Source: Acidobacteriota bacterium
GTDB lineage: Bacteria > Acidobacteriota > Thermoanaerobaculia > Multivoradales > JAGPDF01
Direction: 5' to 3'
DNA: 61,998 nucleotides
NCBI GenBank assembly: GCA_012521815.1
Contig: JAAYLR010000235.1
Location: 1 to 61,998 of the forward strand
A program made the translations under genes and the position numbers. How positions within the stretch are numbered: the stretch's first letter is position 1; the number at the start of each line of letters is the position of its first letter. Below the pieces are notes generated by a model that searched no databases, was not told the origin of the DNA, and saw only the letters and a program-made list of their open reading frames with translations. Positions 20,047-58,238 of the stretch are shown piece by piece.

Positions 20047-20398
20047 TGGTGGAGGCGGTGGGAGTCGAACCCACGTCCGGAGAACGCGTCCCGCGAGCAT
20101 CTACGCGCGTAGCCTTCGTTTCAGGTCATCGCCCCTGCGCAGTGGGAGAAGGCCCCCGGCGCAGGCGCCAGCTACGTTTCGACGATCCCGCCGCGGTACG
20201 GAGCCAACCGTGGCGTTCGGTCCACTTTAGCGACGCTCTGGCCCGTGCCGTGGACGAGGGCCCATGGCCAGAACGTGGCGGTCAATCAAGCCGCCAGGGC
20301 GAAGTTGTCGTTGGCAGTTGTGAAGTGCCGTTTTACGAGCGCTAGCTCGGCACGCACCCGCGAACCGCCCTGTTCCCCGTCGAAACCGGTGCGCCCCC
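20047..20398 (-). ncRNA. ssrA: tmRNA (transfer-messenger RNA), tag peptide ANDNFALAA
   Basis: The minus-strand 5' end is GGGGGCGCACCGGTTTCGACGGGGAAC. The 3' end is GGGTTCGACTCCCACCGCCTCCACCA. An internal reading frame GCC AAC GAC AAC TTC GCC CTG GCG GCT TGA spans 20286-20315. Confidence 0.9.
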
Positions 20399-25415: not shown

Positions 25416-25500
<85 letters not shown>

Positions 25501-49251: not shown

Positions 49252-50805
49252 ATGATCACCGGCGAGATCAGGAATCAGATCGACCGCATCTGGGACTCCT
49301 TCTGGTCCGGCGGCATCTCGAACCCGCTCGAGGTGATCGAGCAGATCACCTACCTGCTCTTCATCCGCCGCCTCGACGACCTGCACACGCTCGAGGAGAA
49401 CAAGGCCAACCGCCTGACGAAGCCGATGGAGCGGCGGGTCTTCCCCGAAGGCAAGGATGCGAGGGGCCGGCCCTACGAGGACTTCCGCTGGTCGCGCTTC
49501 AAGCACTTCGCCCCGGCCGACATGTTCGCCGTCGTCGGCGAGCACGTCTTCCCGTATCTGCGCGCCGACCTCGCGCGCCAGCTCGGCAACGGCGACTCGA
49601 CCTACGCGCACCACATGAAGGACGCGCGCTTCACCATCCCGACGCCCTCCCTGCTCGCGAAGGTGGTGGACCTGCTCGACCAGGTGCCGATGGAGGAGCG
49701 CGACACCAAGGGCGATATCTACGAGTACATGCTGGCCAAGATCGCCACCGCCGGGCAGAACGGCCAGTTCCGCACGCCGCGCCAGATCATCCGGCTGATG
49801 GTCGAGCTGACGGCGCCCACCCCCACCGACGTGATCTGCGACCCGGCCTGCGGCACGGCGGGCTTTCTCGTAGCGGCGGGCGAGTACCTGCGCGAGCGGT
49901 ATCCGAACCTGCTGCACGACAGGAAGCAGAACGAGCACTTCCACCACCGGATGTTCCACGGCTTCGACTTCGACAACACGATGCTGCGCATCGGCAGCAT
50001 GAACATGCTGCTGCACGGCGTCGAGAGCCCGGACATCCGCTACCGCGACTCGCTGGCGCAGGACCACGCAGGGGAAGAGGAAAGCTACACGCTGGTGCTC
50101 GCCAATCCGCCGTTCGCGGGCAGCCTCGACTACGAGAACACCGCCAAGGACCTGCTCCAGATCGTCAAGACCAAGAAGACCGAGTTGCTCTTCCTCGCGC
50201 TCTTCCTGCGGCTCTTGAAGCCCGGTGGGCGCGCGGCCGTGATCGTGCCCGACGGCGTGCTGTTCGGCTCCAGCAAGGCGCACAAGGAGCTGCGCCGCAT
50301 TCTGGTGGAAGACCAGAAGCTCGACGCCGTGGTGTCGCTGCCCGGCGGCGTGTTCAAGCCGTACGCCGGCGTCTCGACCGCGATCCTCGTCTTCACCAGG
50401 ACCAACTCCGGCGGCACCGACTCCGTCTGGTTCTACGACGTGGAGGCCGACGGCTGGAGCCTCGACGACAAGCGCACGCCGCTGCTGGCCGAGGACAAGC
50501 TCGGCCCGGTGCCGAAGACGGCGCTCGCCGCGGACGAGCACCCGAAGAACAACCTGCCCGACGTACTCACCCGCTGGGCCGAACGCGAGGGCAGCGAGCG
50601 CGAGCGCCCGCGCACCGCGCAGAGCTTCTGCGTACCCAGGGCCGACATCGCAGCCAACGGCTACGACCTCTCACTCAACCGCTACAAGGAAGTTGTCCAC
50701 GAAGCCGTCGAGCACCGCCCGCCGAAGGAGATCCTCGCCGAACTGGCAAAGCTGGAGGAGGAGATCCAGCGGGGGATGAAGGAGCTGGAGGGGATGCTGG
50801 GGTGA
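49252..50805 (+). CDS. hsdM: Type I restriction-modification system, DNA methyltransferase subunit
   Basis: 517 aa. The HsdM_N-like N-terminus reads IWDSFWSGGISNP.EVIEQITYLLFIRRLD. Motif I is DPACGTAGFL and motif IV is LANPPFAG. Confidence 0.9.
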   Translation: MITGEIRNQIDRIWDSFWSGGISNPLEVIEQITYLLFIRRLDDLHTLEENKANRLTKPMERRVFPEGKDARGRPYEDFRWSRFKHFAPADMFAVVGEHVFPYLRADLARQLGNGDSTYAHHMKDARFTIPTPSLLAKVVDLLDQVPMEERDTKGDIYEYMLAKIATAGQNGQFRTPRQIIRLMVELTAPTPTDVICDPACGTAGFLVAAGEYLRERYPNLLHDRKQNEHFHHRMFHGFDFDNTMLRIGSMNMLLHGVESPDIRYRDSLAQDHAGEEESYTLVLANPPFAGSLDYENTAKDLLQIVKTKKTELLFLALFLRLLKPGGRAAVIVPDGVLFGSSKAHKELRRILVEDQKLDAVVSLPGGVFKPYAGVSTAILVFTRTNSGGTDSVWFYDVEADGWSLDDKRTPLLAEDKLGPVPKTALAADEHPKNNLPDVLTRWAEREGSERERPRTAQSFCVPRADIAANGYDLSLNRYKEVVHEAVEHRPPKEILAELAKLEEEIQRGMKELEGMLG

Positions 50806-51959
50806 ACGCCGTCCCGTTAGAAGCTGTGTTGGCGTCGTTGGAGAGCGGAGCACGCCCAGCGGGCGGCGCCTCGGTGGACTCGGGCGAGATTCCGAGTCTC
50901 GGCGGGGAACACTTGAACGCCGAGGGCGGATTCAACTTCACGTCTCTGAAACGAATCCCGCGCCCCTTTTTCGAGAGTATTCGAGGCGGGCGAATTGCGA
51001 GCCGTGACATCCTTGTTGTGAAGGACGGAGCCACGACTGGTAAGACGAGTTTCGTGGGTGAGGACTTTCCGTTTCATGAAGCGGCGGTCAACGAACATGT
51101 GTTCTGCCTGCGAGTCGATCAATCCAAGGCGTGCCCGGAGTACGTGTACCACTTTCTTCGCTCGCCTCACGGGCAGCGGTCAATTGCCCTGGACTTTCGT
51201 GGAGCAACTGTCGGCGGCATCTCCCGGGACTTTGCGAGAAAAGTCCGGCTGCCCCTCCCGCCCCTCCCCGAGCAGCGGCGCATTGCGGCGATCCTGGACA
51301 AGGCGGACGCGCTGCGGGCCAAGCGCCGCGCCGCCCTCGCGAAACTCGACACCCTCACCCAATCCATCTTCCTCGACATGTTCGGCGACCCCTTCGAGCA
51401 TCGAGGCGACAGCGTACCTTTGGGCGAGATGGCAGACGTCCTGATGGGTCAGTCACCACCGGGTGCCTCATACAACGTCGCGGGCGATGGAACTCCTCTC
51501 TTGAATGGGCCCACGGAGTTTGGTCCCCGTTACCCTCTCGAAAAGCAGTGGACGACGGAACCGACGCGACTCTGTGCTAAAGGGGACATCCTCTTCTGCG
51601 TCCGGGGTGCCACCGCTGGACGATTGAACCGCGCAGACAAGGTCTACTGCCTTGGGCGAGGCCTCGCCGCCATCCGGCCTCGATCTGGCGCTCCGGTCAG
51701 CGCTGAGTTTCTCTTCGCGGTGCTCGATCGGTACTACGACTACTTCCAAGTAAAGGGCGTGGGGAGCACGTTCATCAACATCAGTCGCCAAGAGCTTGAG
51801 TCACTACCAATACCTAGATCGCACCGTGCGCAGGCGGACGCACTCACTCGGCGAGTCGGTGCTGTAGAGAATGCCAAGGCGGCTCATGTCCAGAGCCTGT
51901 GTGCTCTAGAGTCTCTTTTCGCTTCACTCCAACACCGCGCCTTCCGGGGAGAGTTATGA
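50802..51959 (+). CDS. hsdS: Type I R-M specificity subunit (two target-recognition domains)
   Basis: GTG at 50802 overlaps the hsdM stop (GTGA). The central conserved helix reads [25 protein letters not shown] and the C-terminal helix reads ...[17 protein letters not shown]. The TRDs have the lowest GC in the window. Confidence 0.85.
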
Positions 51960-53035
51960 TGCCTTCCGACTTTCGCCATCCCCCTTCCTACTTTTCCCCG
52001 CGCTTCACCATCACCAACTCGATCACGGCGGCCCTCACGGCGATCGAGCGGGCGCGGGGGTTTCTGGAGGCGGCGACGCTGTCGGAGCAGTGGATCGAGC
52101 GCATGAGCCAGCGGGCGCTGCTCCTCGAAGCGCACCACACGACGCACATCGAGGGCACGCAGCTCACGCTCGACGAAGCGGCGCGGCTGTGGGCGGGCGA
52201 GACCGTCGAAGGTGCGAACCGCGACGACGTGCGCGAGCTGTTGAACTACCGTGATGCCTTCAACCTCGTGGCCGAATATCTCGGCAGCGGCGAGCCGATT
52301 ACCGAAGGGTTGATCCGTGAGATCCACAAGCGGCTGGTTGACGGCGTGCGCGGCGGTTCCGCCCAGCCCGGGCAGTACCGGTTGATCCAGAACTACGTCG
52401 CCAACCGCCGCACCCGCGAGATCATCTACACGCCGCCACCGCCCGAGCAGGTCCCGTCGTTGATGCGTGAGCTGGTCGAGTGGCTGCGCGCCGACGCCGG
52501 CATCCACCCCGTGCTCGTCGCCGGCATCGCGCAGTTCCAGCTCGTGCACATCCATCCGTTCGTGGACGGCAACGGCCGCACCTCGCGGCTGCTCTCGACC
52601 CTTTGCCTGTACCGCTCGGGCTACGACTTCAAGCGCCTGTTCACCCTGAGCGAGTTCTACGACCGCGACCGGTCGGCGTTCTACCGCGCCCTGCAGAGCG
52701 TGCGCGAGCAGGACATGAATCTGACCGGCTGGCTCGAGTTCTTCGTGCAGGGACTGGCCGTGCAGATGGACGAGGTCAAGGCGCGCGGCGAACGAGTGAT
52801 CCGGCGCGACGTGCTCGTGCGCGAGCATCGGCTGAACGAACGGCAGGCGCAGATCGTCGAGGTGCTCATGGGGCGGGATTCTGTGACCATTGAAGATACC
52901 AGGGCCGCGTTACCGCAAATTCCTCGACGCACCCTCCAACGTGATCTCCAGGTGCTGGTCGAAAAACGGATTGCGGTCGCTGAACGAGCCGGTAGAGCCA
53001 GGCGTTATCGCTTACGGGACAATGGTTTACGATGA
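51956..53035 (+). CDS. Fic-family protein (class II, internal inhibitory helix) with a C-terminal winged-helix-like region
   Basis: ATG at 51956 overlaps the hsdS stop (ATGA). The Fic motif is [12 protein letters not shown]. An upstream TTHIEG matches the [ST]xxxE[GN] auto-inhibition motif. Confidence 0.85.
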
Positions 53036-53090
53036 ATTGCGCCAGAATCGCGCCACAAATCGCGCCAAATATGCGCCAGCGATTGCGCCG
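53036..53090. repeat. Five degenerate direct repeats containing GCGCC(A) at 11-12-bp spacing
   Basis: GCGCC starts at 53039, 53050, 53062, 53073 and 53085. The units are aattGCGCCAg, aatcGCGCCAc, aaatcGCGCCAa, atatGCGCCAg and cgattGCGCCGc. The array begins immediately after the fic stop. Confidence 0.7.
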
Positions 53091-53217
53091 CGGATCGTGT
53101 CCGGAGGTCGTACGACGCGGGGCGTGCTATGAGGCAGCCGGCCAGGCGGTGTTCCACAAGGCGCTGGTGACCGATGTGCCCGGGAATGCTCGCGCCGGGC
53201 ATCGGCCCCAGGCATCC

Positions 53218-53245
53218 TTGCATTTCTGGAGCGTAGCTCCATAAT
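53218..53245 (+). promoter_or_regulatory. Candidate sigma70-like promoter TTGCAT-16 nt-CATAAT, predicted to give a leaderless mRNA for the AAA ATPase gene
   Basis: TTGCAT is at 53218-53223 and CATAAT at 53240-53245. The ATG at 53253 lies 7 nt after the -10. There is no Shine-Dalgarno sequence upstream. Confidence 0.45.
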
Positions 53246-53252
53246 TGCATGG

Positions 53253-54419
53253 ATGATCCCTCGCCGGCTTCTCTCGACGCTCATGTCCGCCCTGGCCGAA
53301 GTTCCGGCGGTGGCGCTGCTGGGGCCGCGTCAGGCGGGCAAGACCACGCTGGCGCATGAAGTCGCCGGAACACGGCCGACGGTCTATCTCGATCTGGAGT
53401 CCGAAGCCGACCGCGCAAAGCTCTCCGAGCCTGAGCTCTACCTGGCGCAGCACGCGGACAAGCTGGTCATCCTCGACGAGATCCAGCGCACCCCGCAGCT
53501 CTTCCGGAGCCTCCGCGGGCTCATCGACAAAGGCCGCCGCAGCGGACACGGGACGGGCCGCTTCCTCGTCCTGGGCTCGGCGTCGATCGATCTGCTCAGG
53601 CAGTCGAGCGAGTCGCTCGCGGGACGCATCCGCTATCTGGAGCTCGGCCCGCTCGACGCGGGCGAGGTCGGTCAGGAACGCCTCGACGTACTCTGGCTGC
53701 GCGGGGGATTTCCCGAGAGTCTCCTGGCCGGTACCGATGCGGCGAGCCTGCGCTGGCGCACGGACTTCATCCGCACCTACCTCGAGCGCGACATCCCGCA
53801 ACTCGGACCGCGGATCCCGGCCGAGACGCTGCGCCGGCTCTGGACGATGCTCGCGCATCAGCAGGGTGGTCTGCTCAACGCGGCGGCGCTGGCTCGCGCG
53901 CTGGCCGTGGACGGCAAGACGGTCGCCGCGTATCTCGACCTGCTCGTGGACCTGCTTCTCGTGCGCCGCCTCACGCCCTGGCACGGCAACGTGCGCAAGC
54001 GTCTGGTCAAGTCGCCCAAGGTCTACATCCGCGACAGCGGGCTGGTGCACGCGTTGCTCGGGATCGCCGACCGCGAAGCGCTGCTGGCGCACCCGGCCGT
54101 GGGCGGGAGCTGGGAGGGCCTGGCCATCGAGTCGCTGATCGCCGCCGCGCCGAATGGCGCCGAGCCGCATTTCTTCCGCACGGCGGCCGGCGCGGAGATC
54201 GACCTGCTGCTGAAGCTCCCCGGCCATCGCAAGCCCTGGGCGATCGAGATCAAGCGCGGACTCGCGCCGAAGCTGGAGCGTGGCTTCCGCGTGGCCTGCG
54301 AAGCCGTTCGCCCGGAGCGGCGTCTCGTGGTCTATGGTGGTGTGGAACGTTTTCCGCTGGCGGAAGACGTGGAGACGGTCCCGCTCATCGAAATGTGCGA
54401 AGAGCTCTCTGCAGCATGA
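53253..54419 (+). CDS. AAA-type ATPase with a DUF4143-like C-terminal domain
   Basis: 388 aa. Walker A is LLGPRQAGKTTL and Walker B is KLVILDEIQ. The C-terminal part reads KSPKVYIRDSGLVHALLGI...E..IAA. Confidence 0.8.
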   Translation: MIPRRLLSTLMSALAEVPAVALLGPRQAGKTTLAHEVAGTRPTVYLDLESEADRAKLSEPELYLAQHADKLVILDEIQRTPQLFRSLRGLIDKGRRSGHGTGRFLVLGSASIDLLRQSSESLAGRIRYLELGPLDAGEVGQERLDVLWLRGGFPESLLAGTDAASLRWRTDFIRTYLERDIPQLGPRIPAETLRRLWTMLAHQQGGLLNAAALARALAVDGKTVAAYLDLLVDLLLVRRLTPWHGNVRKRLVKSPKVYIRDSGLVHALLGIADREALLAHPAVGGSWEGLAIESLIAAAPNGAEPHFFRTAAGAEIDLLLKLPGHRKPWAIEIKRGLAPKLERGFRVACEAVRPERRLVVYGGVERFPLAEDVETVPLIEMCEELSAA

Positions 54420-57400
54420 GCCAGTTCACCTTTCTCCAGCGCGAATGGGCCGCCGTCTTCGAGGCGGCGTCCAAAGCGGAAGGCGCCGTGCACGCCGATC
54501 CGCGCACCGCCTGCTTCTATGCCCGCCGGGCGCTGGAGTTGGCGGTGAGCTGGGCGTTCAAGCACGACGCTTCGCTCCGGCTGCCGTACCAGGACAACCT
54601 CTCGGCACTGATCCACGAGCCGAGCTTCAAGCAGACGGCCGGCGAGGCGGTGTTCAGCAAGGCGCGGGTGATCAACACGCTCGGCAACCGCGCGGTGCAC
54701 AGCCACCGGCCGGTGCCCGAGGCGGACGCCGTCGCGGCGGTCCGCGAGCTGTTCCATGTCGCCTACTGGTTCGCGCGCACCTACGGGCGTACGGGCCGGC
54801 CGGCGCCGGGCCTCGCCTTCGACCCGGCCGCGCTGCCGCGGCCCGCTCGGGCGGCGGCGCAGACCGCCGAGCAGCTGCAGGCGCTGGAAGCGCGCCTGCG
54901 CGAGAAAGGCGAAAGCCTCGCGGCGCTCCTCGCCGACAAGACCGCCCTCGACGAGGAGCTCACGCGCCTGCGCGCCGAGGTCGCGAAGGCGAAACAGGCG
55001 GCCGCGGCGCAGCCCGACACGCACGACTACTCCGAGGCCGAGACCCGCGACTACTTCATCGACCTGTTGCTCAAGGAGGCCGGCTGGCCGCTCGATCAGG
55101 CACGAGACCGGGAGTTCGAAGTCACCGGCATGCCGAACGCCGAAGGCAAGGGTTTCGTGGACTACGTGCTCTGGGGCGACGACGGCAAGCCGCTCGCTCT
55201 GGTGGAAGCCAAGCGCACGCGCCGCGACCCGCGGGCCGGGCAGCAGCAGGCCAAGCTCTATGCCGACTGCCTGGAGCGGCAGTTTGGCCGGCGGCCGGTG
55301 ATCTTCTACTCGAATGGTTACGAGCACTGGCTCTGGGACGACACGCGCTACCCGCCGCGCCGGGTGCAGGGGTTCTACAAGAGGGCGGAGCTGGAGCTTT
55401 TGATTCAACGGCGCGAGACACGTCGTCCGCTCGCCGAGGCGGCGATCAGCCCGACGATCGTCGAGCGCCACTACCAGACGCGCGCCATCCGCCGCATCGC
55501 CGAGGCGTTCGAGCGCGACCACGACCGCAAGGCGCTGCTCGTGATGGCCACCGGCGCCGGCAAGACGCGTACGGTGATCGCGCTCTGCGATCTGCTCATG
55601 CGCTGTAACTGGGCCAAGCGCGTGCTCTTCCTCGCCGACCGCGTGGCGCTCGTCAACCAGGCGGTGAACGCCTTCAAGCGCCATCTCCCGGACGCCTCCC
55701 CGGTGAACCTCGTCACCGAGAAGACGGCCGAGGGGCGCGTGTACGTCTCGACCTATCCGACGATGATGGGGCTGATCGACGAGATGTCCCAGGACCGCGC
55801 AGGGCGCGGTAGCGACGGCCAGCGCCGCTTCGGCGTGGGGCACTTCGACCTCGTGATCATCGACGAGGCGCACCGCTCGGTGTTCCAGAAGTACCGCGCC
55901 ATCTTCGACTACTTCGACTCGCTGCTCGTGGGCCTGACCGCGACGCCCAAGGACGAGGTGGATCGCAATACCTACCGACTGTTCGATCTCGAGGACGGCG
56001 TGCCCACCGACGCCTACTCGCTCGAGGAGGCCGTGCACGACGGCTTTCTCGTCCCTCCGCAGGCGGTCTCGGTGCCGCTCAAGTTCCAGCGCGAGGGGAT
56101 CAAGTACGACGAGCTGTCGGAAGAGGACAAGGAACAGTGGGACGCGCTGGAGTGGGACGACGAAGGAGACATTCCCGACCGGGTCGAAGCCGAGGCCGTC
56201 AACCGCTGGCTCTTCAACCAGGACACCGTGGACAAGGTGCTGGAGCACCTGATGAGGCGCGGCCAGAGGGTCGCGGGGGGCGACCGGCTGGGCAAGACCA
56301 TCATCTTCGCCAAGAACCAGCAGCACGCCGAGTTCATCGCCGAGCGCTTCGACGCGAACTACCCGCACCTGAAGGGCGCATTCGCGCGTGTCATCACCTT
56401 CAAGACCGAGTACGCGCAGAGCCTGATCGAAGACCTTTCCATCAAGGACAAGGCTCCACACATCGCGATCTCGGTGGACATGCTCGACACCGGCATTGAC
56501 ATCCCGGAGGTGGCGAACCTGGTCTTCTTCAAGCTGGTGCGTTCGAAGACCAAGTTCTGGCAGATGCTCGGGCGCGGCACCCGGCTCTGCCCGGATCTGT
56601 TCGGGCCGGGCAGGGACAAGGAGTTCTTCTACCTCTTCGACTACTGCCAGAACCTCGAGTACTTCAGCCAGGACATCCCGGGGACCGACGGCTACGCCGC
56701 CGAATCGCTCGCCAAGCGGCTCTTCGACGCGCGGCTGGAGCTGATCGTCGAGCTCGATCGGTGCGCGGAGCAGCCGCGGGACCGGCGGCCTCCGGAGCAG
56801 GCGGCGAGCCACGGCGATCCGGTGAACGAATCGGAGGTGCGGCGAGCCGTCGCTGAGCTGCTGCAGCGCGAGGTCGCGGCGATGAAGGTCGACAACTTCA
56901 TAGTGCGGCCTCACCGCCGTCTGGTCGAGATGTACGCTGACCTTGGGGCGTGGACCGCGCTGACGACGGATGCGATCGCCGAGCTGTCCCAGGAGGTTGC
57001 CGGACTCCCCACCGGGCTCGCTCCGGAAAGCGAGGAAGCCAGGTTTTTCGATCTGATCGTTTTGAAGCTGCAGCTCGCCATTCTTCGCTCTGAACCCACC
57101 TTCGGGCTGCAGGCTCGATTGAGAGAGATCGCCGGGCTCCTAGCGGAGAAGGACGCGATCCCGAGCGTGCGGGAACAGATGGCGCTCATCCAGGACGTGT
57201 TGACCGACGAGTGGTGGCAGGACGTCACGGTTCCGATGCTGGAGTCGATGCGACGTCGCTTGCGCGGGCTCGTCCACCTCATCGACAAGCGGCGACGCCG
57301 GCCCGTCTACACCGATTTCGAGGATTCGATCGGGCAGGAGACCCATTTCACGCTGTCGGGTAGCGCCGTTGGCATCGATCAGACCAGGTTCATCGCCAAG

Positions 57401-57850
57401 GCCCGGGCGTTCCTGCAGAAGCACCTCGATCATCTCGCCGTCGCGAAGCTGAGGCTGAACCGGCCGCTCACTTCGTCCGACCTCTCCGAGCTGGAGCGGC
57501 TGCTTGGCGAGAGTGGCGTCGGCGAGCCGGAAGACATCCGCCGCGCGGCGGAGGATGCTCAGGGCCTGGGGTTGTTCGTCCGCTCGCTGGTCGGAATGGA
57601 CCGGGTGGCGGCGAAGCAGGCGCTGGCGAGCTTCACGGAAGGCAAGACTCTGACCGCGAACCAGCTCGAGTTCGTCAACCTCATCGTGGAGCACCTGACG
57701 GAGCACGGCGTGGTCGAGGCGGCACGGCTCTACGAATCACCGTTCACCGATCTCGCACCCCACGGGCCGGACGACCTGTTCGCCTCGTCGGAACTCGATG
57801 AGTTGATGCGGGTTCTGAATGCCGTTCGGGCCGCTGCGATCGCGGCCTAG
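54416..57850 (+). CDS. hsdR: Type I restriction endonuclease subunit R with an N-terminal DUF4145-like domain and coiled coil (EcoEI-type C-terminus)
   Basis: ATG at 54416 overlaps the ATPase stop (ATGA). The N-terminus reads ARRALELAV...NTLGNRAVH. The PD-(D/E)xK nuclease part reads GFVDYVLWG...LVEAKRT. The helicase motifs are MATGAGKTRT, IIDEAHRS and GLTATP, followed by a long helical C-terminal domain. Confidence 0.85.
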   Translation: MSQFTFLQREWAAVFEAASKAEGAVHADPRTACFYARRALELAVSWAFKHDASLRLPYQDNLSALIHEPSFKQTAGEAVFSKARVINTLGNRAVHSHRPVPEADAVAAVRELFHVAYWFARTYGRTGRPAPGLAFDPAALPRPARAAAQTAEQLQALEARLREKGESLAALLADKTALDEELTRLRAEVAKAKQAAAAQPDTHDYSEAETRDYFIDLLLKEAGWPLDQARDREFEVTGMPNAEGKGFVDYVLWGDDGKPLALVEAKRTRRDPRAGQQQAKLYADCLERQFGRRPVIFYSNGYEHWLWDDTRYPPRRVQGFYKRAELELLIQRRETRRPLAEAAISPTIVERHYQTRAIRRIAEAFERDHDRKALLVMATGAGKTRTVIALCDLLMRCNWAKRVLFLADRVALVNQAVNAFKRHLPDASPVNLVTEKTAEGRVYVSTYPTMMGLIDEMSQDRAGRGSDGQRRFGVGHFDLVIIDEAHRSVFQKYRAIFDYFDSLLVGLTATPKDEVDRNTYRLFDLEDGVPTDAYSLEEAVHDGFLVPPQAVSVPLKFQREGIKYDELSEEDKEQWDALEWDDEGDIPDRVEAEAVNRWLFNQDTVDKVLEHLMRRGQRVAGGDRLGKTIIFAKNQQHAEFIAERFDANYPHLKGAFARVITFKTEYAQSLIEDLSIKDKAPHIAISVDMLDTGIDIPEVANLVFFKLVRSKTKFWQMLGRGTRLCPDLFGPGRDKEFFYLFDYCQNLEYFSQDIPGTDGYAAESLAKRLFDARLELIVELDRCAEQPRDRRPPEQAASHGDPVNESEVRRAVAELLQREVAAMKVDNFIVRPHRRLVEMYADLGAWTALTTDAIAELSQEVAGLPTGLAPESEEARFFDLIVLKLQLAILRSEPTFGLQARLREIAGLLAEKDAIPSVREQMALIQDVLTDEWWQDVTVPMLESMRRRLRGLVHLIDKRRRRPVYTDFEDSIGQETHFTLSGSAVGIDQTRFIAKARAFLQKHLDHLAVAKLRLNRPLTSSDLSELERLLGESGVGEPEDIRRAAEDAQGLGLFVRSLVGMDRVAAKQALASFTEGKTLTANQLEFVNLIVEHLTEHGVVEAARLYESPFTDLAPHGPDDLFASSELDELMRVLNAVRAAAIAA

Positions 57851-57902: not shown

Positions 57903-58238
57903 TCACCCCTTCCCTCCCCCCTCCCCCCTCCGCAGCAGCACGAGGTTCCTGGCGTAGAGGAAGGGGAGGAAGAGGAAGCTGAGGATGACGGGGAGCTTGT
58001 CGATGTGGAAGGCGTAGAGGAGGGCGATGACGCTGCCCCAGAAGGAGAGGTGCCAGAAGATCGGGGGGACGACGAGGACGCGTTTCTTCTCCGAGTAGAG
58101 CCACTGGATCACGAAGCGGGAGGAGAAGACCGCGTTGCCGAGGAGGCCGAAGGCGGTCCACCACTTCGACTCGACGTAGAGCCAGGGGAGGAGGGGGGCG
58201 AGGAGGGGGGCCAGGAAGCCGGAGGTCGCGGTGTCCAT
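57903..58238 (-). CDS. Lipid-A-disaccharide synthase N-terminal (LAB_N) domain membrane protein
   Basis: 111 aa. The sequence reads GLLGNAVFSSRFVIQWLYSEKKR...FWHLSFWGSV. It is the C-terminal part of track ORF 57903..59492. Confidence 0.7.
   Translation of the reverse strand: MDTATSGFLAPLLAPLLPWLYVESKWWTAFGLLGNAVFSSRFVIQWLYSEKKRVLVVPPIFWHLSFWGSVIALLYAFHIDKLPVILSFLFLPFLYARNLVLLRRGEGGGKG

What the first reader, a model, noticed from the sequence alone, without database searches (positions are those of the whole stretch)
49252..57850. Composite Type I R-M locus: hsdM-hsdS-fic / AAA(DUF4143)-hsdR, a candidate R-M-linked secondary defence module
A complete Type I system is split by two non-R-M genes, each welded to an R-M gene by 4-nt overlaps: hsdM/hsdS by GTGA, hsdS/fic by ATGA, and ATPase/hsdR by ATGA. 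The locus therefore forms two tightly coupled translational units separated by a 217-bp regulatory-looking spacer. The whole segment has visibly lower GC than its flanks. It has no mobility genes and sits between housekeeping genes. The known precedent is the prr locus, where the anticodon nuclease PrrC is embedded in a Type I system and fires when phage disables the restriction enzyme. Here the embedded genes are an auto-inhibited AMPylase-type Fic protein and a P-loop ATPase of a family with no assigned function. I am not aware of that combination being a described defence system.
Basis: partly seen in the sequence, partly recalled or inferred. Interest (0 to 1): 0.75.

Follow-up and report, generated by a model that had tools for sequence, protein, structure and literature searches.

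The report
Restriction locus with embedded defence cassettes
A horizontally acquired Type I restriction-modification operon carries two separately mobile single-gene defence cassettes, a SoFic-type Fic toxin and a PDC-S01-type ATPase-nuclease, which is an already described kind of arrangement and not a new integrated system.

Summary
In detail: hsdM-hsdS-fic, a 217-bp gap, then AAA_14/DUF4143 ATPase-hsdR, with the stated 4-nt overlaps, intact catalytic motifs and low GC. The segment sits between housekeeping genes, and an empty site exists in a related genome.

The claim of novelty is not supported. PADLOC models identify the Fic as SoFic, a validated defence gene. They identify the ATPase as PDC-S01, a candidate found through its embedding in R-M, BREX or DISARM loci.

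Comparative loci show two independent cassettes:
- hsdM-hsdS-fic-hsdR without the ATPase is the common, older layout.
- The ATPase is a portable unit with its own 37-bp palindromic promoter-like element. It was inserted into the 5' end of hsdR.
- Most close relatives of either gene lie outside R-M loci.
- fic has decayed or been replaced in sister loci that keep ATPase-hsdR.

The "regulatory spacer" has three parts: a fic-linked array of 11/12-nt repeats, a relic of hsdR codons ~75-100, and the ATPase promoter.

Two side results may be new. The repeat motif co-varies with the wing of the Fic C-terminal wHTH. About 40% of informative ATPase copies carry hsdR, or a scar of its start, at the same junction.

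The parts
49252..50805 (+). hsdM, the Type I methyltransferase subunit (517 aa)
   Evidence: Pfam HsdM_N + N6_Mtase. PADLOC MTase_I at 5e-193 over the full length. NPPF at residue 285. 85-94% identical relatives occur in other phyla.
50802..51959 (+). hsdS, the specificity subunit (385 aa); GTGA overlap with hsdM
   Evidence: Pfam Methylase_S. PADLOC Specificity_I at 9e-60. Junction sequence. One metagenome copy (L005) has a 2-nt deletion.
51956..53035 (+). fic, a SoFic-type class II Fic AMPylase with a C-terminal wHTH (359 aa); ATGA overlap with hsdS
   Evidence: Pfam Fic_N + Fic. PADLOC SoFic at 1.1e-69, model positions 18-350 of 361. Motifs at 62-67 and 200-211. PDB relatives 7xux, FICD and SoFic. 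The C-terminus gives weak wHTH hits.
53036..53093 (+). fic-linked array of five direct repeats (GCGCCA cores at 53039, 53050, 53062, 53073 and 53085; spacing 11/12/11/12)
   Evidence: TRF period 11 and 23. The pattern is unique in the window, with 3 hits against 0.17 expected. Equivalent arrays follow the fic stop in 66/71 related loci. The motif co-varies with the Fic wing.
53137..53214 (+). Relic (pseudogene fragment) of the hsdR 5' region, homologous to 54638-54711 (HsdR codons ~75-100)
   Evidence: Local alignment score 49 against 19.6 +/- 2.5 for shuffles, with a shuffle maximum of 31. Repeat D6. The same relic is present in L095, L015 and L029.
53216..53252 (+). 5' end of the ATPase cassette: a 37-bp nested palindrome (CCTTGCAaTT-n-TGGA-N8-TCCA-t-AATTGCAaGG) containing TTGCAT-16 nt-CATAAT and abutting the ATG
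   Evidence: Information content rises from 0.11 to 1.33 bits per position at exactly -38 across 67 loci. Alignment. Nucleotide homology in ~55 unrelated contexts starts at 53212-53217.
53253..54419 (+). AAA_14 + DUF4143 ATPase-nuclease, PADLOC PDC-S01 type (388 aa)
   Evidence: Pfam. PADLOC PDC-S01 at 1.2e-89. Walker A and B and the E-x-D / E-x-K motifs are conserved in paralogs of 27-52% identity. DUF4143 is listed in the PD-(D/E)XK superfamily (PMC3424549).
54416..57850 (+). hsdR, the restriction subunit with an N-terminal DUF4145 and a C-terminal EcoEI_R_C domain (1144 aa); ATGA overlap with the ATPase
   Evidence: Pfam. PADLOC REase_I at 5e-164. Motifs. NCBIfam EcoAI/FtnUII family at 261 bits, below the 550-bit cutoff.
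57903..58238 (-). Small LAB_N-domain gene (111 aa), probably part of the inserted segment
   Evidence: Called in L001-L005. GC 0.658, like the island. Absent from the empty site in L175.

Best explanation
The segment, roughly 48.8-58.3 kb in window coordinates, is a horizontally acquired Type I R-M operon. Its HsdR is related to the EcoAI/EcoEI group and has an N-terminal DUF4145 domain. The operon acts as a scaffold for two unrelated, independently mobile single-gene defence cassettes.

Cassette 1 is a SoFic-type Fic AMPylase together with its own downstream array of 11/12-nt repeats. Its position between hsdS and hsdR is the older and widespread layout.

Cassette 2 is a PDC-S01-type AAA+ / wHTH / PD-(D/E)xK protein with its own palindromic promoter-like element. 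It entered later, by recombination within the 5' end of hsdR. That event left a decayed partial copy of hsdR upstream and fused the ATPase stop codon to the hsdR start codon.

Inferred mode of action is layered but separable immunity:
- HsdMSR restricts unmethylated DNA.
- Fic acts as an abortive-infection toxin. Published SoFic AMPylates EF-Tu and stops translation.
- The ATPase-nuclease is a nucleotide-driven nuclease effector whose trigger is unknown.

Shown here: the anatomy, the family assignments, the separate insertion histories and the turnover of cargo. Inferred: all activities, and the independence of function.
For: Family assignments:
- PADLOC gives SoFic at 1.1e-69 and PDC-S01 at 1.2e-89.
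- Motifs are intact.

Foreign origin:
- GC is 0.66 against 0.75.
- There is an empty site in L175.
- The neighbouring housekeeping gene has no relative above 60% identity outside its own population. HsdM, Fic and the ATPase have relatives of 75-95% identity in other phyla.

Older layout:
- hsdM-hsdS-fic-hsdR without the ATPase occurs in L096, L098, L106, L107, L110 and L112.
- Only L095 shares the window's layout.

ATPase insertion:
- An hsdR relic lies at 53137-53214.
- In L076, L063 and L018, hsdR 5' scraps of different lengths precede the cassette.
- The cassette's left border is fixed at -38.

Independence from R-M and from each other:
- Only 15/80 ATPase loci have same-type Type I genes within 10 kb.
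- 274 of 349 neighbouring genes are singletons.
- Most Fic relatives of 62-70% identity lack same-family Type I genes.
- fic is deleted or truncated in L016, L018, L007 and L015, while ATPase-hsdR persists there.
- The same slot holds ThsB-TIR + Schlafen-like, PDC-S32-like or other SoFic genes elsewhere.

Literature:
- Embedded defence genes in Type I R-M.
- SoFic defence.
- EF-Tu AMPylation and DNA binding by SoFic.
- PDC-S01 described as an ATPase fused to a PD-(D/E)xK domain.
Against: - No activity was tested.
- One PDC-S01 representative gave no protection against T4, T5 or T7 in E. coli (bioRxiv 10.1101/2024.09.26.614923), so a defence role for the ATPase is unproven.
- The Fic scores far below the NCBIfam SoFic equivalog cutoff (78 against 550 bits). 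It is therefore a distant SoFic relative.
- Within the closest Fic clade (>=75% identity), 8 of 10 informative loci are embedded in R-M.
- The ATGA junction with hsdR, or its scar, is present in 24/62 ATPase loci. A functional tie to R-M in these sub-clades is therefore not excluded.
- The AF2 model of the ATPase is poor (pLDDT 54.6).
Confidence: 0.7

Rival explanations
1. PrrC-like guard. Fic and/or the ATPase are kept latent by the HsdMSR complex. They fire when a phage anti-restriction protein disables it.
For: - Embedding is recurrent.
- Translational coupling occurs at hsdS/fic and ATPase/hsdR, and the ATGA junction with hsdR is kept in eight independent genome contexts.
- The closest Fic clade is nearly always embedded in R-M.
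Against: - Intact solo copies of both genes outnumber embedded ones. PrrC, by contrast, is almost exclusively embedded.
- fic is lost repeatedly beside an intact ATPase-hsdR.
- There is no similarity to PrrC or RloC.
- Fic carries its own auto-inhibitory helix, and published SoFic is regulated by dimerisation.
Confidence: 0.12
2. In this context Fic is chiefly a DNA-binding controller. Its wHTH binds the repeat array downstream of its gene. It thereby governs the next gene (hsdR in the ancestral layout), much as C-proteins time restriction in Type II systems. AMPylation would be secondary.
For: - The array follows fic in 66/71 loci.
- The array occupies most of the fic-hsdR intergenic region in loci without the ATPase.
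- Wing type matches motif in 59/62 loci. Wing type changes ~23 times on the tree of the catalytic domain.
- The SoFic dimer binds specific DNA.
Against: - The array is present whatever gene follows.
- In the window the array is separated from hsdR by the relic and the ATPase cassette.
- The Fic catalytic and inhibitory motifs are fully conserved.
- The wing and the array are physically adjacent, so their association could reflect linkage alone.
Confidence: 0.1
3. The ATPase cassette is a selfish, self-propagating gene and not a defence gene. In this reading a AAA+ / wHTH / PD-(D/E)xK protein promotes its own spread, and the 5' end of hsdR is a favoured landing site.
For: - The borders are sharply defined and identical in >55 unrelated contexts across >10 phyla, at 75-95% protein identity.
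- Insertions into hsdR at different breakpoints share one cassette border.
- Weak fold matches include the MuB and TnsC AAA+ transposition proteins.
- A negative phage assay exists for one PDC-S01.
Against: - There are no terminal inverted repeats at both ends, no fixed target-site duplication and no transposase or integrase domain.
- The fold matches have TM 0.2-0.27 on a poor model.
- No relatives were found in viral contigs.
- The borders coincide with promoter and stop codon, as expected from selection on a minimal functional gene.
Confidence: 0.08

Closest known systems
Defence genes embedded in Type I R-M, BREX or DISARM loci ('guilt-by-embedding', Payne et al., bioRxiv 10.1101/2024.01.29.577857)
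   Same: Non-R-M genes are nested between hsd genes. Both inserts match PADLOC models of known or candidate systems, and the cargo varies between copies of the same R-M family.
   Different: This locus holds two different cassettes at once. Their insertion histories can be read from an hsdR relic and from fic remnants in sister loci.
The prr locus (PrrC anticodon nuclease within EcoprrI hsdMSR)
   Same: An effector gene sits inside a Type I operon and is co-transcribed with hsd genes.
   Different: There is no ABC-ATPase or anticodon-nuclease homology. PrrC is almost always embedded, whereas both genes here are mostly solo. Dependence on HsdMSR was not tested.
SoFic single-gene defence (Millman et al. 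2022; S. oneidensis SoFic and E. coli Sofic structures)
   Same: A class II Fic with an N-terminal inhibitory helix, the HxFx(D/E)GNGRxxR motif and a C-terminal wHTH. It gives a full-length PADLOC SoFic hit.
   Different: It shares only distant sequence similarity with SoFic itself (NCBIfam 78 bits against a 550-bit cutoff). It is followed by a repeat array that is not mentioned in the papers read. The 70-aa ORF after fic is an hsdR relic and not an AS1-like antitoxin gene.
PDC-S01 (PADLOC candidate; COG1373 / DUF4143 ATPases)
   Same: AAA_14 + DUF4143 architecture, a PD-(D/E)xK-type C-terminal motif, a single gene, often near defence genes.
   Different: This is a very conserved sub-clade (75-95% identity across phyla). 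It has a fixed 37-bp palindromic 5' element and an ancestral ATGA fusion to hsdR. Its function is still untested.
Type IB R-M systems (EcoAI/EcoEI)
   Same: HsdR carries the EcoEI_R_C domain and is most similar to the EcoAI/FtnUII and PRK11448 models.
   Different: Scores are below the equivalog cutoffs (261 against 550 bits; 293 against 729 bits).

Membership tests
Type I restriction-modification system | HsdM N6-adenine methyltransferase with AdoMet-binding and NPPF motifs | tested here: met
   Pfam N6_Mtase at 2.5e-61 and HsdM_N. NPPF at 285 and DPACGTAGF.
Type I restriction-modification system | HsdS specificity subunit with two target-recognition regions | tested here: met
   PADLOC Specificity_I models cover residues 65-385. 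Pfam Methylase_S.
Type I restriction-modification system | HsdR with a PD-(D/E)xK nuclease and an SF2 translocase | tested here: met
   HSDR_N, ResIII and Helicase_C. D249...E265xK267, GKT at 382, DEAH at 483.
Type I restriction-modification system | Sequence-specific methylation and restriction activity | not testable with these tools
   Requires methylome data or plaque assays.
Type IB (EcoAI/EcoEI) family | HsdR reaches the family equivalog score | tested here: not met
   NCBIfam restrict_EcoAI at 261 bits against a 550-bit cutoff. PRK11448 at 293 bits against 729. The EcoEI_R_C domain is present.
SoFic defence (PADLOC/DefenseFinder sense) | Fic motif HxFx(D/E)GNGRxxR | tested here: met
   [12 protein letters not shown] at 200-211.
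SoFic defence (PADLOC/DefenseFinder sense) | Full-length match to the SoFic profile | tested here: met
   PDLC03963 at 1.1e-69, protein residues 17-352, model positions 18-350 of 361.
SoFic defence (PADLOC/DefenseFinder sense) | Orthology with S. oneidensis SoFic (NCBIfam equivalog) | tested here: not met
   NF046030 at 78.5 bits against a 550-bit cutoff.
SoFic defence (PADLOC/DefenseFinder sense) | Protection against phage; AMPylation of EF-Tu | not testable with these tools
   Known only for other family members.
PDC-S01 candidate | AAA_14 ATPase fused to a DUF4143 (PD-(D/E)xK) domain, matching the PDC-S01 profiles | tested here: met
   Pfam at 1.7e-25 and 1.2e-45. PDLC04790 at 1.2e-89. E-x-D and E-x-K are conserved.
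PDC-S01 candidate | Anti-phage activity | not testable with these tools
   The family is unvalidated. One member was negative against T4, T5 and T7.
PrrC-type R-M-dependent guard | Near-exclusive embedding in Type I loci | tested here: not met
   ATPase: 15/80 loci have same-type Type I genes within 10 kb. Fic: 17/59 have HsdR as the downstream neighbour.
PrrC-type R-M-dependent guard | ABC-ATPase plus anticodon-nuclease domains | tested here: not met
   No PrrC or RloC hit in Pfam or PADLOC.
PrrC-type R-M-dependent guard | Latency imposed by HsdMSR and release by anti-restriction factors | not testable with these tools
   Needs genetics and biochemistry.

The most novel reading that the evidence does not exclude
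In the R-M-embedded sub-clades the parts are functionally wired. Fic is tethered through its wHTH to the repeat array in front of hsdR. It both gates hsdR expression and serves as a back-up toxin. The PDC-S01 ATPase, ancestrally translationally fused to hsdR, is a second R-M-coupled effector.
Probability: 0.13. Interest if true: 0.75.

Novelty: new member of a known kind. Interest (0 to 1): 0.4.

Why it matters
As a composite locus this is one more example of defence genes nested in a Type I R-M operon, and both inserts are already in PADLOC.

Its value lies in how clearly the history can be read:
- There is an empty site in a related genome.
- An hsdR relic marks the ATPase insertion.
- Sister loci show fic being swapped or decayed.

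This illustrates how the conserved 5' end of hsdR and the hsdM/hsdS genes flank a slot where cargo is exchanged.

Two by-products could matter more.

(1) The Fic repeat array. An array of direct repeats at about one helical turn follows this Fic clade, and its motif matches the wHTH wing type. This gives a concrete, testable DNA target for a SoFic-type toxin whose regulation is unresolved.

(2) The PDC-S01 clade. PDC-S01 is reported as the fourth most common defence candidate in prokaryotes, and its function is unknown. This very conserved clade has a fixed palindromic operator-like element and an ancestral start/stop fusion to hsdR. Both are handles for experiments.

Tried and rejected
- **The 70-aa ORF 53032-53244.** It overlaps the fic stop codon by ATGA, and I considered it as an AS1-like antitoxin gene. 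I rejected this. Its C-terminal half is a decayed copy of HsdR residues ~75-100. Its N-terminal part simply reads through the repeat array, and no ORF is conserved there in other loci.
- **Structured RNA in the spacer.** Folding gives z = -0.24 against shuffles, and there is no Rfam match.
- **Sigma-70 consensus scan.** It found no promoter in 48.8-58.4 kb. The TTGCAT-16-CATAAT element falls below that scan's threshold and is supported only by conservation.
- **Mobility signatures.** There is no tRNA at the borders. There are no convincing flanking direct or inverted repeats and no integrase or transposase domains.
- **Phage carriage of the ATPase.** No relative was found in IMG/VR contigs.
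- **Structure of the ATPase.** It has no PDB sequence relative. The AF2 model is poor because the permitted alignment is shallow (pLDDT 54.6). Foldseek gives only generic AAA+ initiator and clamp-loader matches at TM ~0.25, so these were not used beyond 'AAA+'.
- **Fic-type repeats upstream of hsdM.** None were found.
- **E. coli Sofic/AS1 locus.** I could not check it for a comparable array, because no sequence was available to the tools.

Full report
**1. Observation**

The six-frame ORF list and the junction sequences confirm the anatomy exactly as described.
- hsdM is 49252-50805.
- hsdS runs from GTG 50802 to 51959 (GTGA overlap).
- fic runs from ATG 51956 to 53035 (ATGA overlap). A second in-frame ATG at 51959 would give a 1-nt overlap.
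- A 217-bp gap spans 53036-53252.
- An ATPase gene is 53253-54419.
- hsdR runs from ATG 54416 to 57850 (ATGA overlap).

Pfam gives these domains:
- HsdM_N + N6_Mtase.
- Methylase_S.
- Fic_N + Fic.
- AAA_14 + DUF4143.
- DUF4145 + HSDR_N + ResIII + Helicase_C + EcoEI_R_C.

All catalytic signatures are present:
- HsdM has NPPF at 285.
- HsdR has D249...E265xK267, GKT at 382 and DEAH at 483.
- Fic has [12 protein letters not shown] at 200-211, plus the class II inhibitory motif T62xxxE66G67.
- The ATPase has Walker A at 24-31, D75E76, E315xD317 and E332xK334.
- The ATPase residues are also conserved in paralogs of 27-52% identity.

GC is 0.662 in the locus, against 0.753 on the left flank and 0.71 on the right.

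**2. Setting**

The flanks encode a beta-eliminating lyase, a MIP channel, TsaD and a PlsC-like acyltransferase on the left. HtrA and DinB lie on the right.

The acyltransferase's best relatives outside its own population are only 58-60% identical, and they come from Thermoanaerobaculia. In one such genome (L175) the same gene order holds, with the acyltransferase and htrA only 27 nt apart. That is an empty site.

The inserted segment is therefore about 48.8-58.3 kb. It probably includes a small LAB_N gene at 57903-58238 (minus strand). That gene has island-like GC and is absent from the empty site.

No tRNA, integrase or flanking repeats mark the borders.

In contrast to the housekeeping neighbour, HsdM, Fic and the ATPase have relatives of 75-95% identity. 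These occur in Gemmatimonadota, Myxococcota, Nitrospirota, Acidobacteriota, Pseudomonadota, Spirochaetota, Planctomycetota and others. The segment is a horizontally transferred island.

**3. What the two inserts are**

Against PADLOC-DB the Fic protein matches SoFic over its full length at 1.1e-69. The ATPase matches PDC-S01 at 1.2e-89.

SoFic is a validated single-gene defence system. According to the papers read:
- SoFic AMPylates EF-Tu switch I and blocks translation.
- SoFic is active as a dimer and binds specific DNA through its C-terminal wHTH.
- An E. coli homologue is toxic.

The PDC candidates were defined precisely because they are found embedded in BREX, DISARM and Type I R-M loci. 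PDC-S01 is described as an ATPase fused to a PD-(D/E)xK domain and as the fourth most common defence candidate. DUF4143 is listed in the PD-(D/E)XK superfamily. One PDC-S01 representative gave no protection against T4, T5 or T7.

So both inserts, and the principle of embedding, are already described.

Two caveats apply:
- By the stricter NCBIfam equivalog model, the Fic is only a distant SoFic relative (78 against 550 bits).
- HsdR is EcoAI/EcoEI-like but below the cutoffs.

**4. Are the inserts recurrent partners of Type I systems?**

*The ATPase.* I examined 80 genome loci with relatives of 64-95% identity.
- Same-type Type I genes lie within 10 kb in 15 of them.
- The ATPase directly abuts a full hsdR in 7 of 62 informative loci.
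- The neighbourhoods are otherwise extremely diverse. Of 349 flanking genes, 274 are singletons. They include housekeeping genes.

*Fic.* I examined 80 metagenome loci with relatives of 62-92% identity.
- HsdR is the immediate downstream gene in 17 of 59. At least two HsdR families are involved.
- Schlafen-like genes are the downstream gene in 7 of 59.
- In the closest clade (>=75% identity), 8 of 10 informative loci are embedded as hsdM-hsdS-fic-hsdR.

Embedding is therefore far above chance but not obligatory. Intact solo copies predominate for both genes. This differs from PrrC, which is almost exclusively embedded.

**5. History of the locus**

The layout hsdM-hsdS-fic-hsdR without the ATPase is the common one. 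It occurs in L096, L098, L106, L107, L110 and L112. Only L095 shares the window's full arrangement.

Nucleotide homology between the window and nearly all ATPase loci starts sharply at 53212-53217 and ends at or just after the stop codon. Across 67 loci, information content jumps from 0.11 to 1.33 bits per position at exactly -38.

The conserved 37 bp form a nested palindrome, CCTTGCAaTT-n-TGGA-N8-TCCA-t-AATTGCAaGG. It contains TTGCAT-16 nt-CATAAT and runs directly into the ATG. There is no room for a Shine-Dalgarno sequence. I infer a self-contained promoter and operator with a leaderless or near-leaderless start.

Immediately upstream, 53137-53214 is homologous to hsdR 54638-54711. The alignment score is 49, against 19.6 +/- 2.5 for shuffles. 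At the protein level, AGQAVFHKALVTDVPGNARAGHRP aligns with AGEAVFSKARVINTLGNRAVHSHRP.

Other loci carry hsdR 5' scraps of different lengths in front of the same cassette border. These are L076 (nt 1-47), L063 (1-70) and L018 (19-95).

Downstream of the ATPase stop codon, 17 further loci that lack an adjacent hsdR still carry the first 16-160 nt of hsdR at the identical ATGA junction.

I read this as follows:
- The ATPase clade was ancestrally fused to the hsdR start.
- It has repeatedly recombined into, and out of, the conserved 5' (DUF4145-coding) part of hsdR.
- In the window's lineage it entered a fic-containing locus and left a partial hsdR copy that decayed.

The exact mechanism is inferred. 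It could be homology-facilitated illegitimate recombination or Campbell-type insertion of an excised circle.

**6. Cargo turnover**

In sister loci that keep ATPase-hsdR, fic is:
- internally deleted in L016;
- truncated in L018;
- reduced to its last ~110 nt plus the repeat array in L007-L014 and L015.

In L007 the slot holds a ThsB-type TIR gene and a Schlafen-like ATPase. Other copies of the same R-M family hold Schlafen-like plus PDC-S32-like genes (L061), other SoFic genes (L044, L077) or nothing (L047). In L044, L061 and L077 the ATPase sits upstream of hsdM instead.

The two inserts are thus separable from each other and from the R-M genes. This argues against one integrated module.

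**7. The 217-bp 'spacer'**

It is a mosaic of three parts:

(i) 53036-53093 holds five direct repeats. Their GCGCCA cores start at 53039, 53050, 53062, 53073 and 53085, spaced 11/12/11/12 nt. This pattern occurs nowhere else in the window, with 3 hits against 0.17 expected.

(ii) The hsdR relic.

(iii) The ATPase palindrome.

The spacer has no unusual RNA fold (z = -0.24) and no Rfam match.

The 70-aa ORF that overlaps the fic stop codon is not a gene. It reads through the repeats and then through the hsdR relic, and it is not conserved as an ORF elsewhere.

**8. A side result: Fic and its array**

Equivalent arrays of 3-7 direct repeats, spaced alternately 11/12 or 10/13 nt, follow the fic stop codon in 66 of 71 related loci, whatever gene comes next. 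The array therefore belongs to the fic cassette.

The core motif co-varies with the sequence of the predicted wing of the C-terminal wHTH:
- The wing G-x-G-P-T-D-P-x-R-x-Y goes with [GA]TGACA in 30/31 loci.
- The wing G-E-T-N-x-L-x-Y goes with GCGACA in 29/31 loci.
- The window's wing, ERAGRARRY, goes with GCGCCA.
- Fisher's exact test gives p = 5e-16, uncorrected for phylogeny.

The recognition-helix region RRTLQRDL is constant across the classes.

On a tree of the catalytic domain, wing type changes about 23 times. The wing + array block has therefore been exchanged repeatedly.

The C-terminus gives only weak wHTH hits, to BlaI, DeoR and HxlR families. Close homologues carry precomputed wHTH domains.

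The simplest reading is that the Fic wHTH binds this array. The caveat is that the wing codons and the array are less than 150 nt apart, so their co-inheritance could reflect linkage alone.

The role of such binding is unknown. It could be autoregulation, control of the downstream gene, or tethering or titration of the toxin. None of the SoFic papers I read mentions the array.

**9. Mechanism and verdict**

Most likely (confidence 0.7), this is a transferred Type I R-M operon carrying two autonomous defence cassettes that act as independent layers:
- restriction by HsdMSR;
- abortive infection by Fic-mediated AMPylation, by analogy with SoFic and EF-Tu;
- a nucleotide-dependent PD-(D/E)xK effector of unknown trigger.

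hsdR is now co-translated with the ATPase. It is probably transcribed from the ATPase's own promoter as well as by read-through.

The PrrC-like guard model remains possible for the R-M-embedded sub-clades. It is disfavoured by the abundance of intact solo copies and by the repeated loss of fic.

The finding is real but ordinary in kind. Both inserts are catalogued, and the locus is a new member of a known class. The Fic wing-array pairing and the hsdR-linked PDC-S01 cassette are the parts worth following up.

Noticed in passing
window 53036-53093; loci L095-L174: Arrays of 3-7 short direct repeats, spaced 11/12 or 10/13 nt, follow the fic stop codon in 66/71 related loci. The core motif (GCGACA, [GA]TGACA or GCGCCA) matches the wing sequence of the Fic C-terminal wHTH in 59/62 loci. 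The wing + array block has been swapped ~23 times relative to the catalytic domain.
   Followed up: yes
window 53216-53252; loci L015-L094: A 37-bp nested palindrome with a TTGCAT-16-CATAAT element forms a sharply conserved 5' border of the ATPase cassette in 67 loci from >10 phyla. It abuts the ATG with no Shine-Dalgarno spacing.
   Followed up: yes
window 53137-53214 vs 54638-54711: The spacer contains a decayed duplicate of hsdR codons ~75-100. Different-length hsdR 5' scraps flank the ATPase cassette in L076, L063, L018, L029 and L015. In addition, 17 loci without an adjacent hsdR keep the first 16-160 nt of hsdR after the ATPase stop codon.
   Followed up: yes
L005:2137-3289 (same population as the window): One metagenome assembly of the same organism has a 2-nt deletion in a TTT run of hsdS, at window ~51066. 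It frameshifts the gene. This is either an assembly error or a natural hsdS-off variant.
   Followed up: partly
window 57903-58238 (-): A 111-aa LAB_N-domain gene (similar to the lipid-A-disaccharide synthase N-terminus) has island-like GC (0.658) and is absent from the empty site in L175. It seems to have arrived with, or next to, the R-M island.
   Followed up: partly
L007-L014 (Polyangiaceae UTPRO1 and related contigs): The same ATPase-hsdR pair is preceded by a ThsB-type TIR gene and a Schlafen/AlbA_2-HATPase gene. A ~110-nt fic 3' remnant and the GCGCCA repeats are retained. TTGCAA-containing repeats follow the Schlafen gene. Several assemblies break just upstream of the TIR gene.
   Followed up: partly
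L056:596-7112; also L024, L044, L057, L061, L064, L069, L070: Divergent DUF4143 ATPase paralogs (27-52% identity) cluster next to the conserved copy, with up to four in 7 kb in L056.
   Followed up: no
window 20047-20398 (-) and 25416-25500 (+): A tmRNA gene (tag ANDNFALAA) and a tRNA-Leu(GAG) gene. Both are far from the island and unrelated to it.
   Followed up: no
HsdR residues 1-211 (window 54416-55048): The N-terminal DUF4145 region of HsdR also matches the PADLOC candidate PDC-M16A at 5.6e-19. It is the segment where all the observed recombination junctions fall.
   Followed up: no
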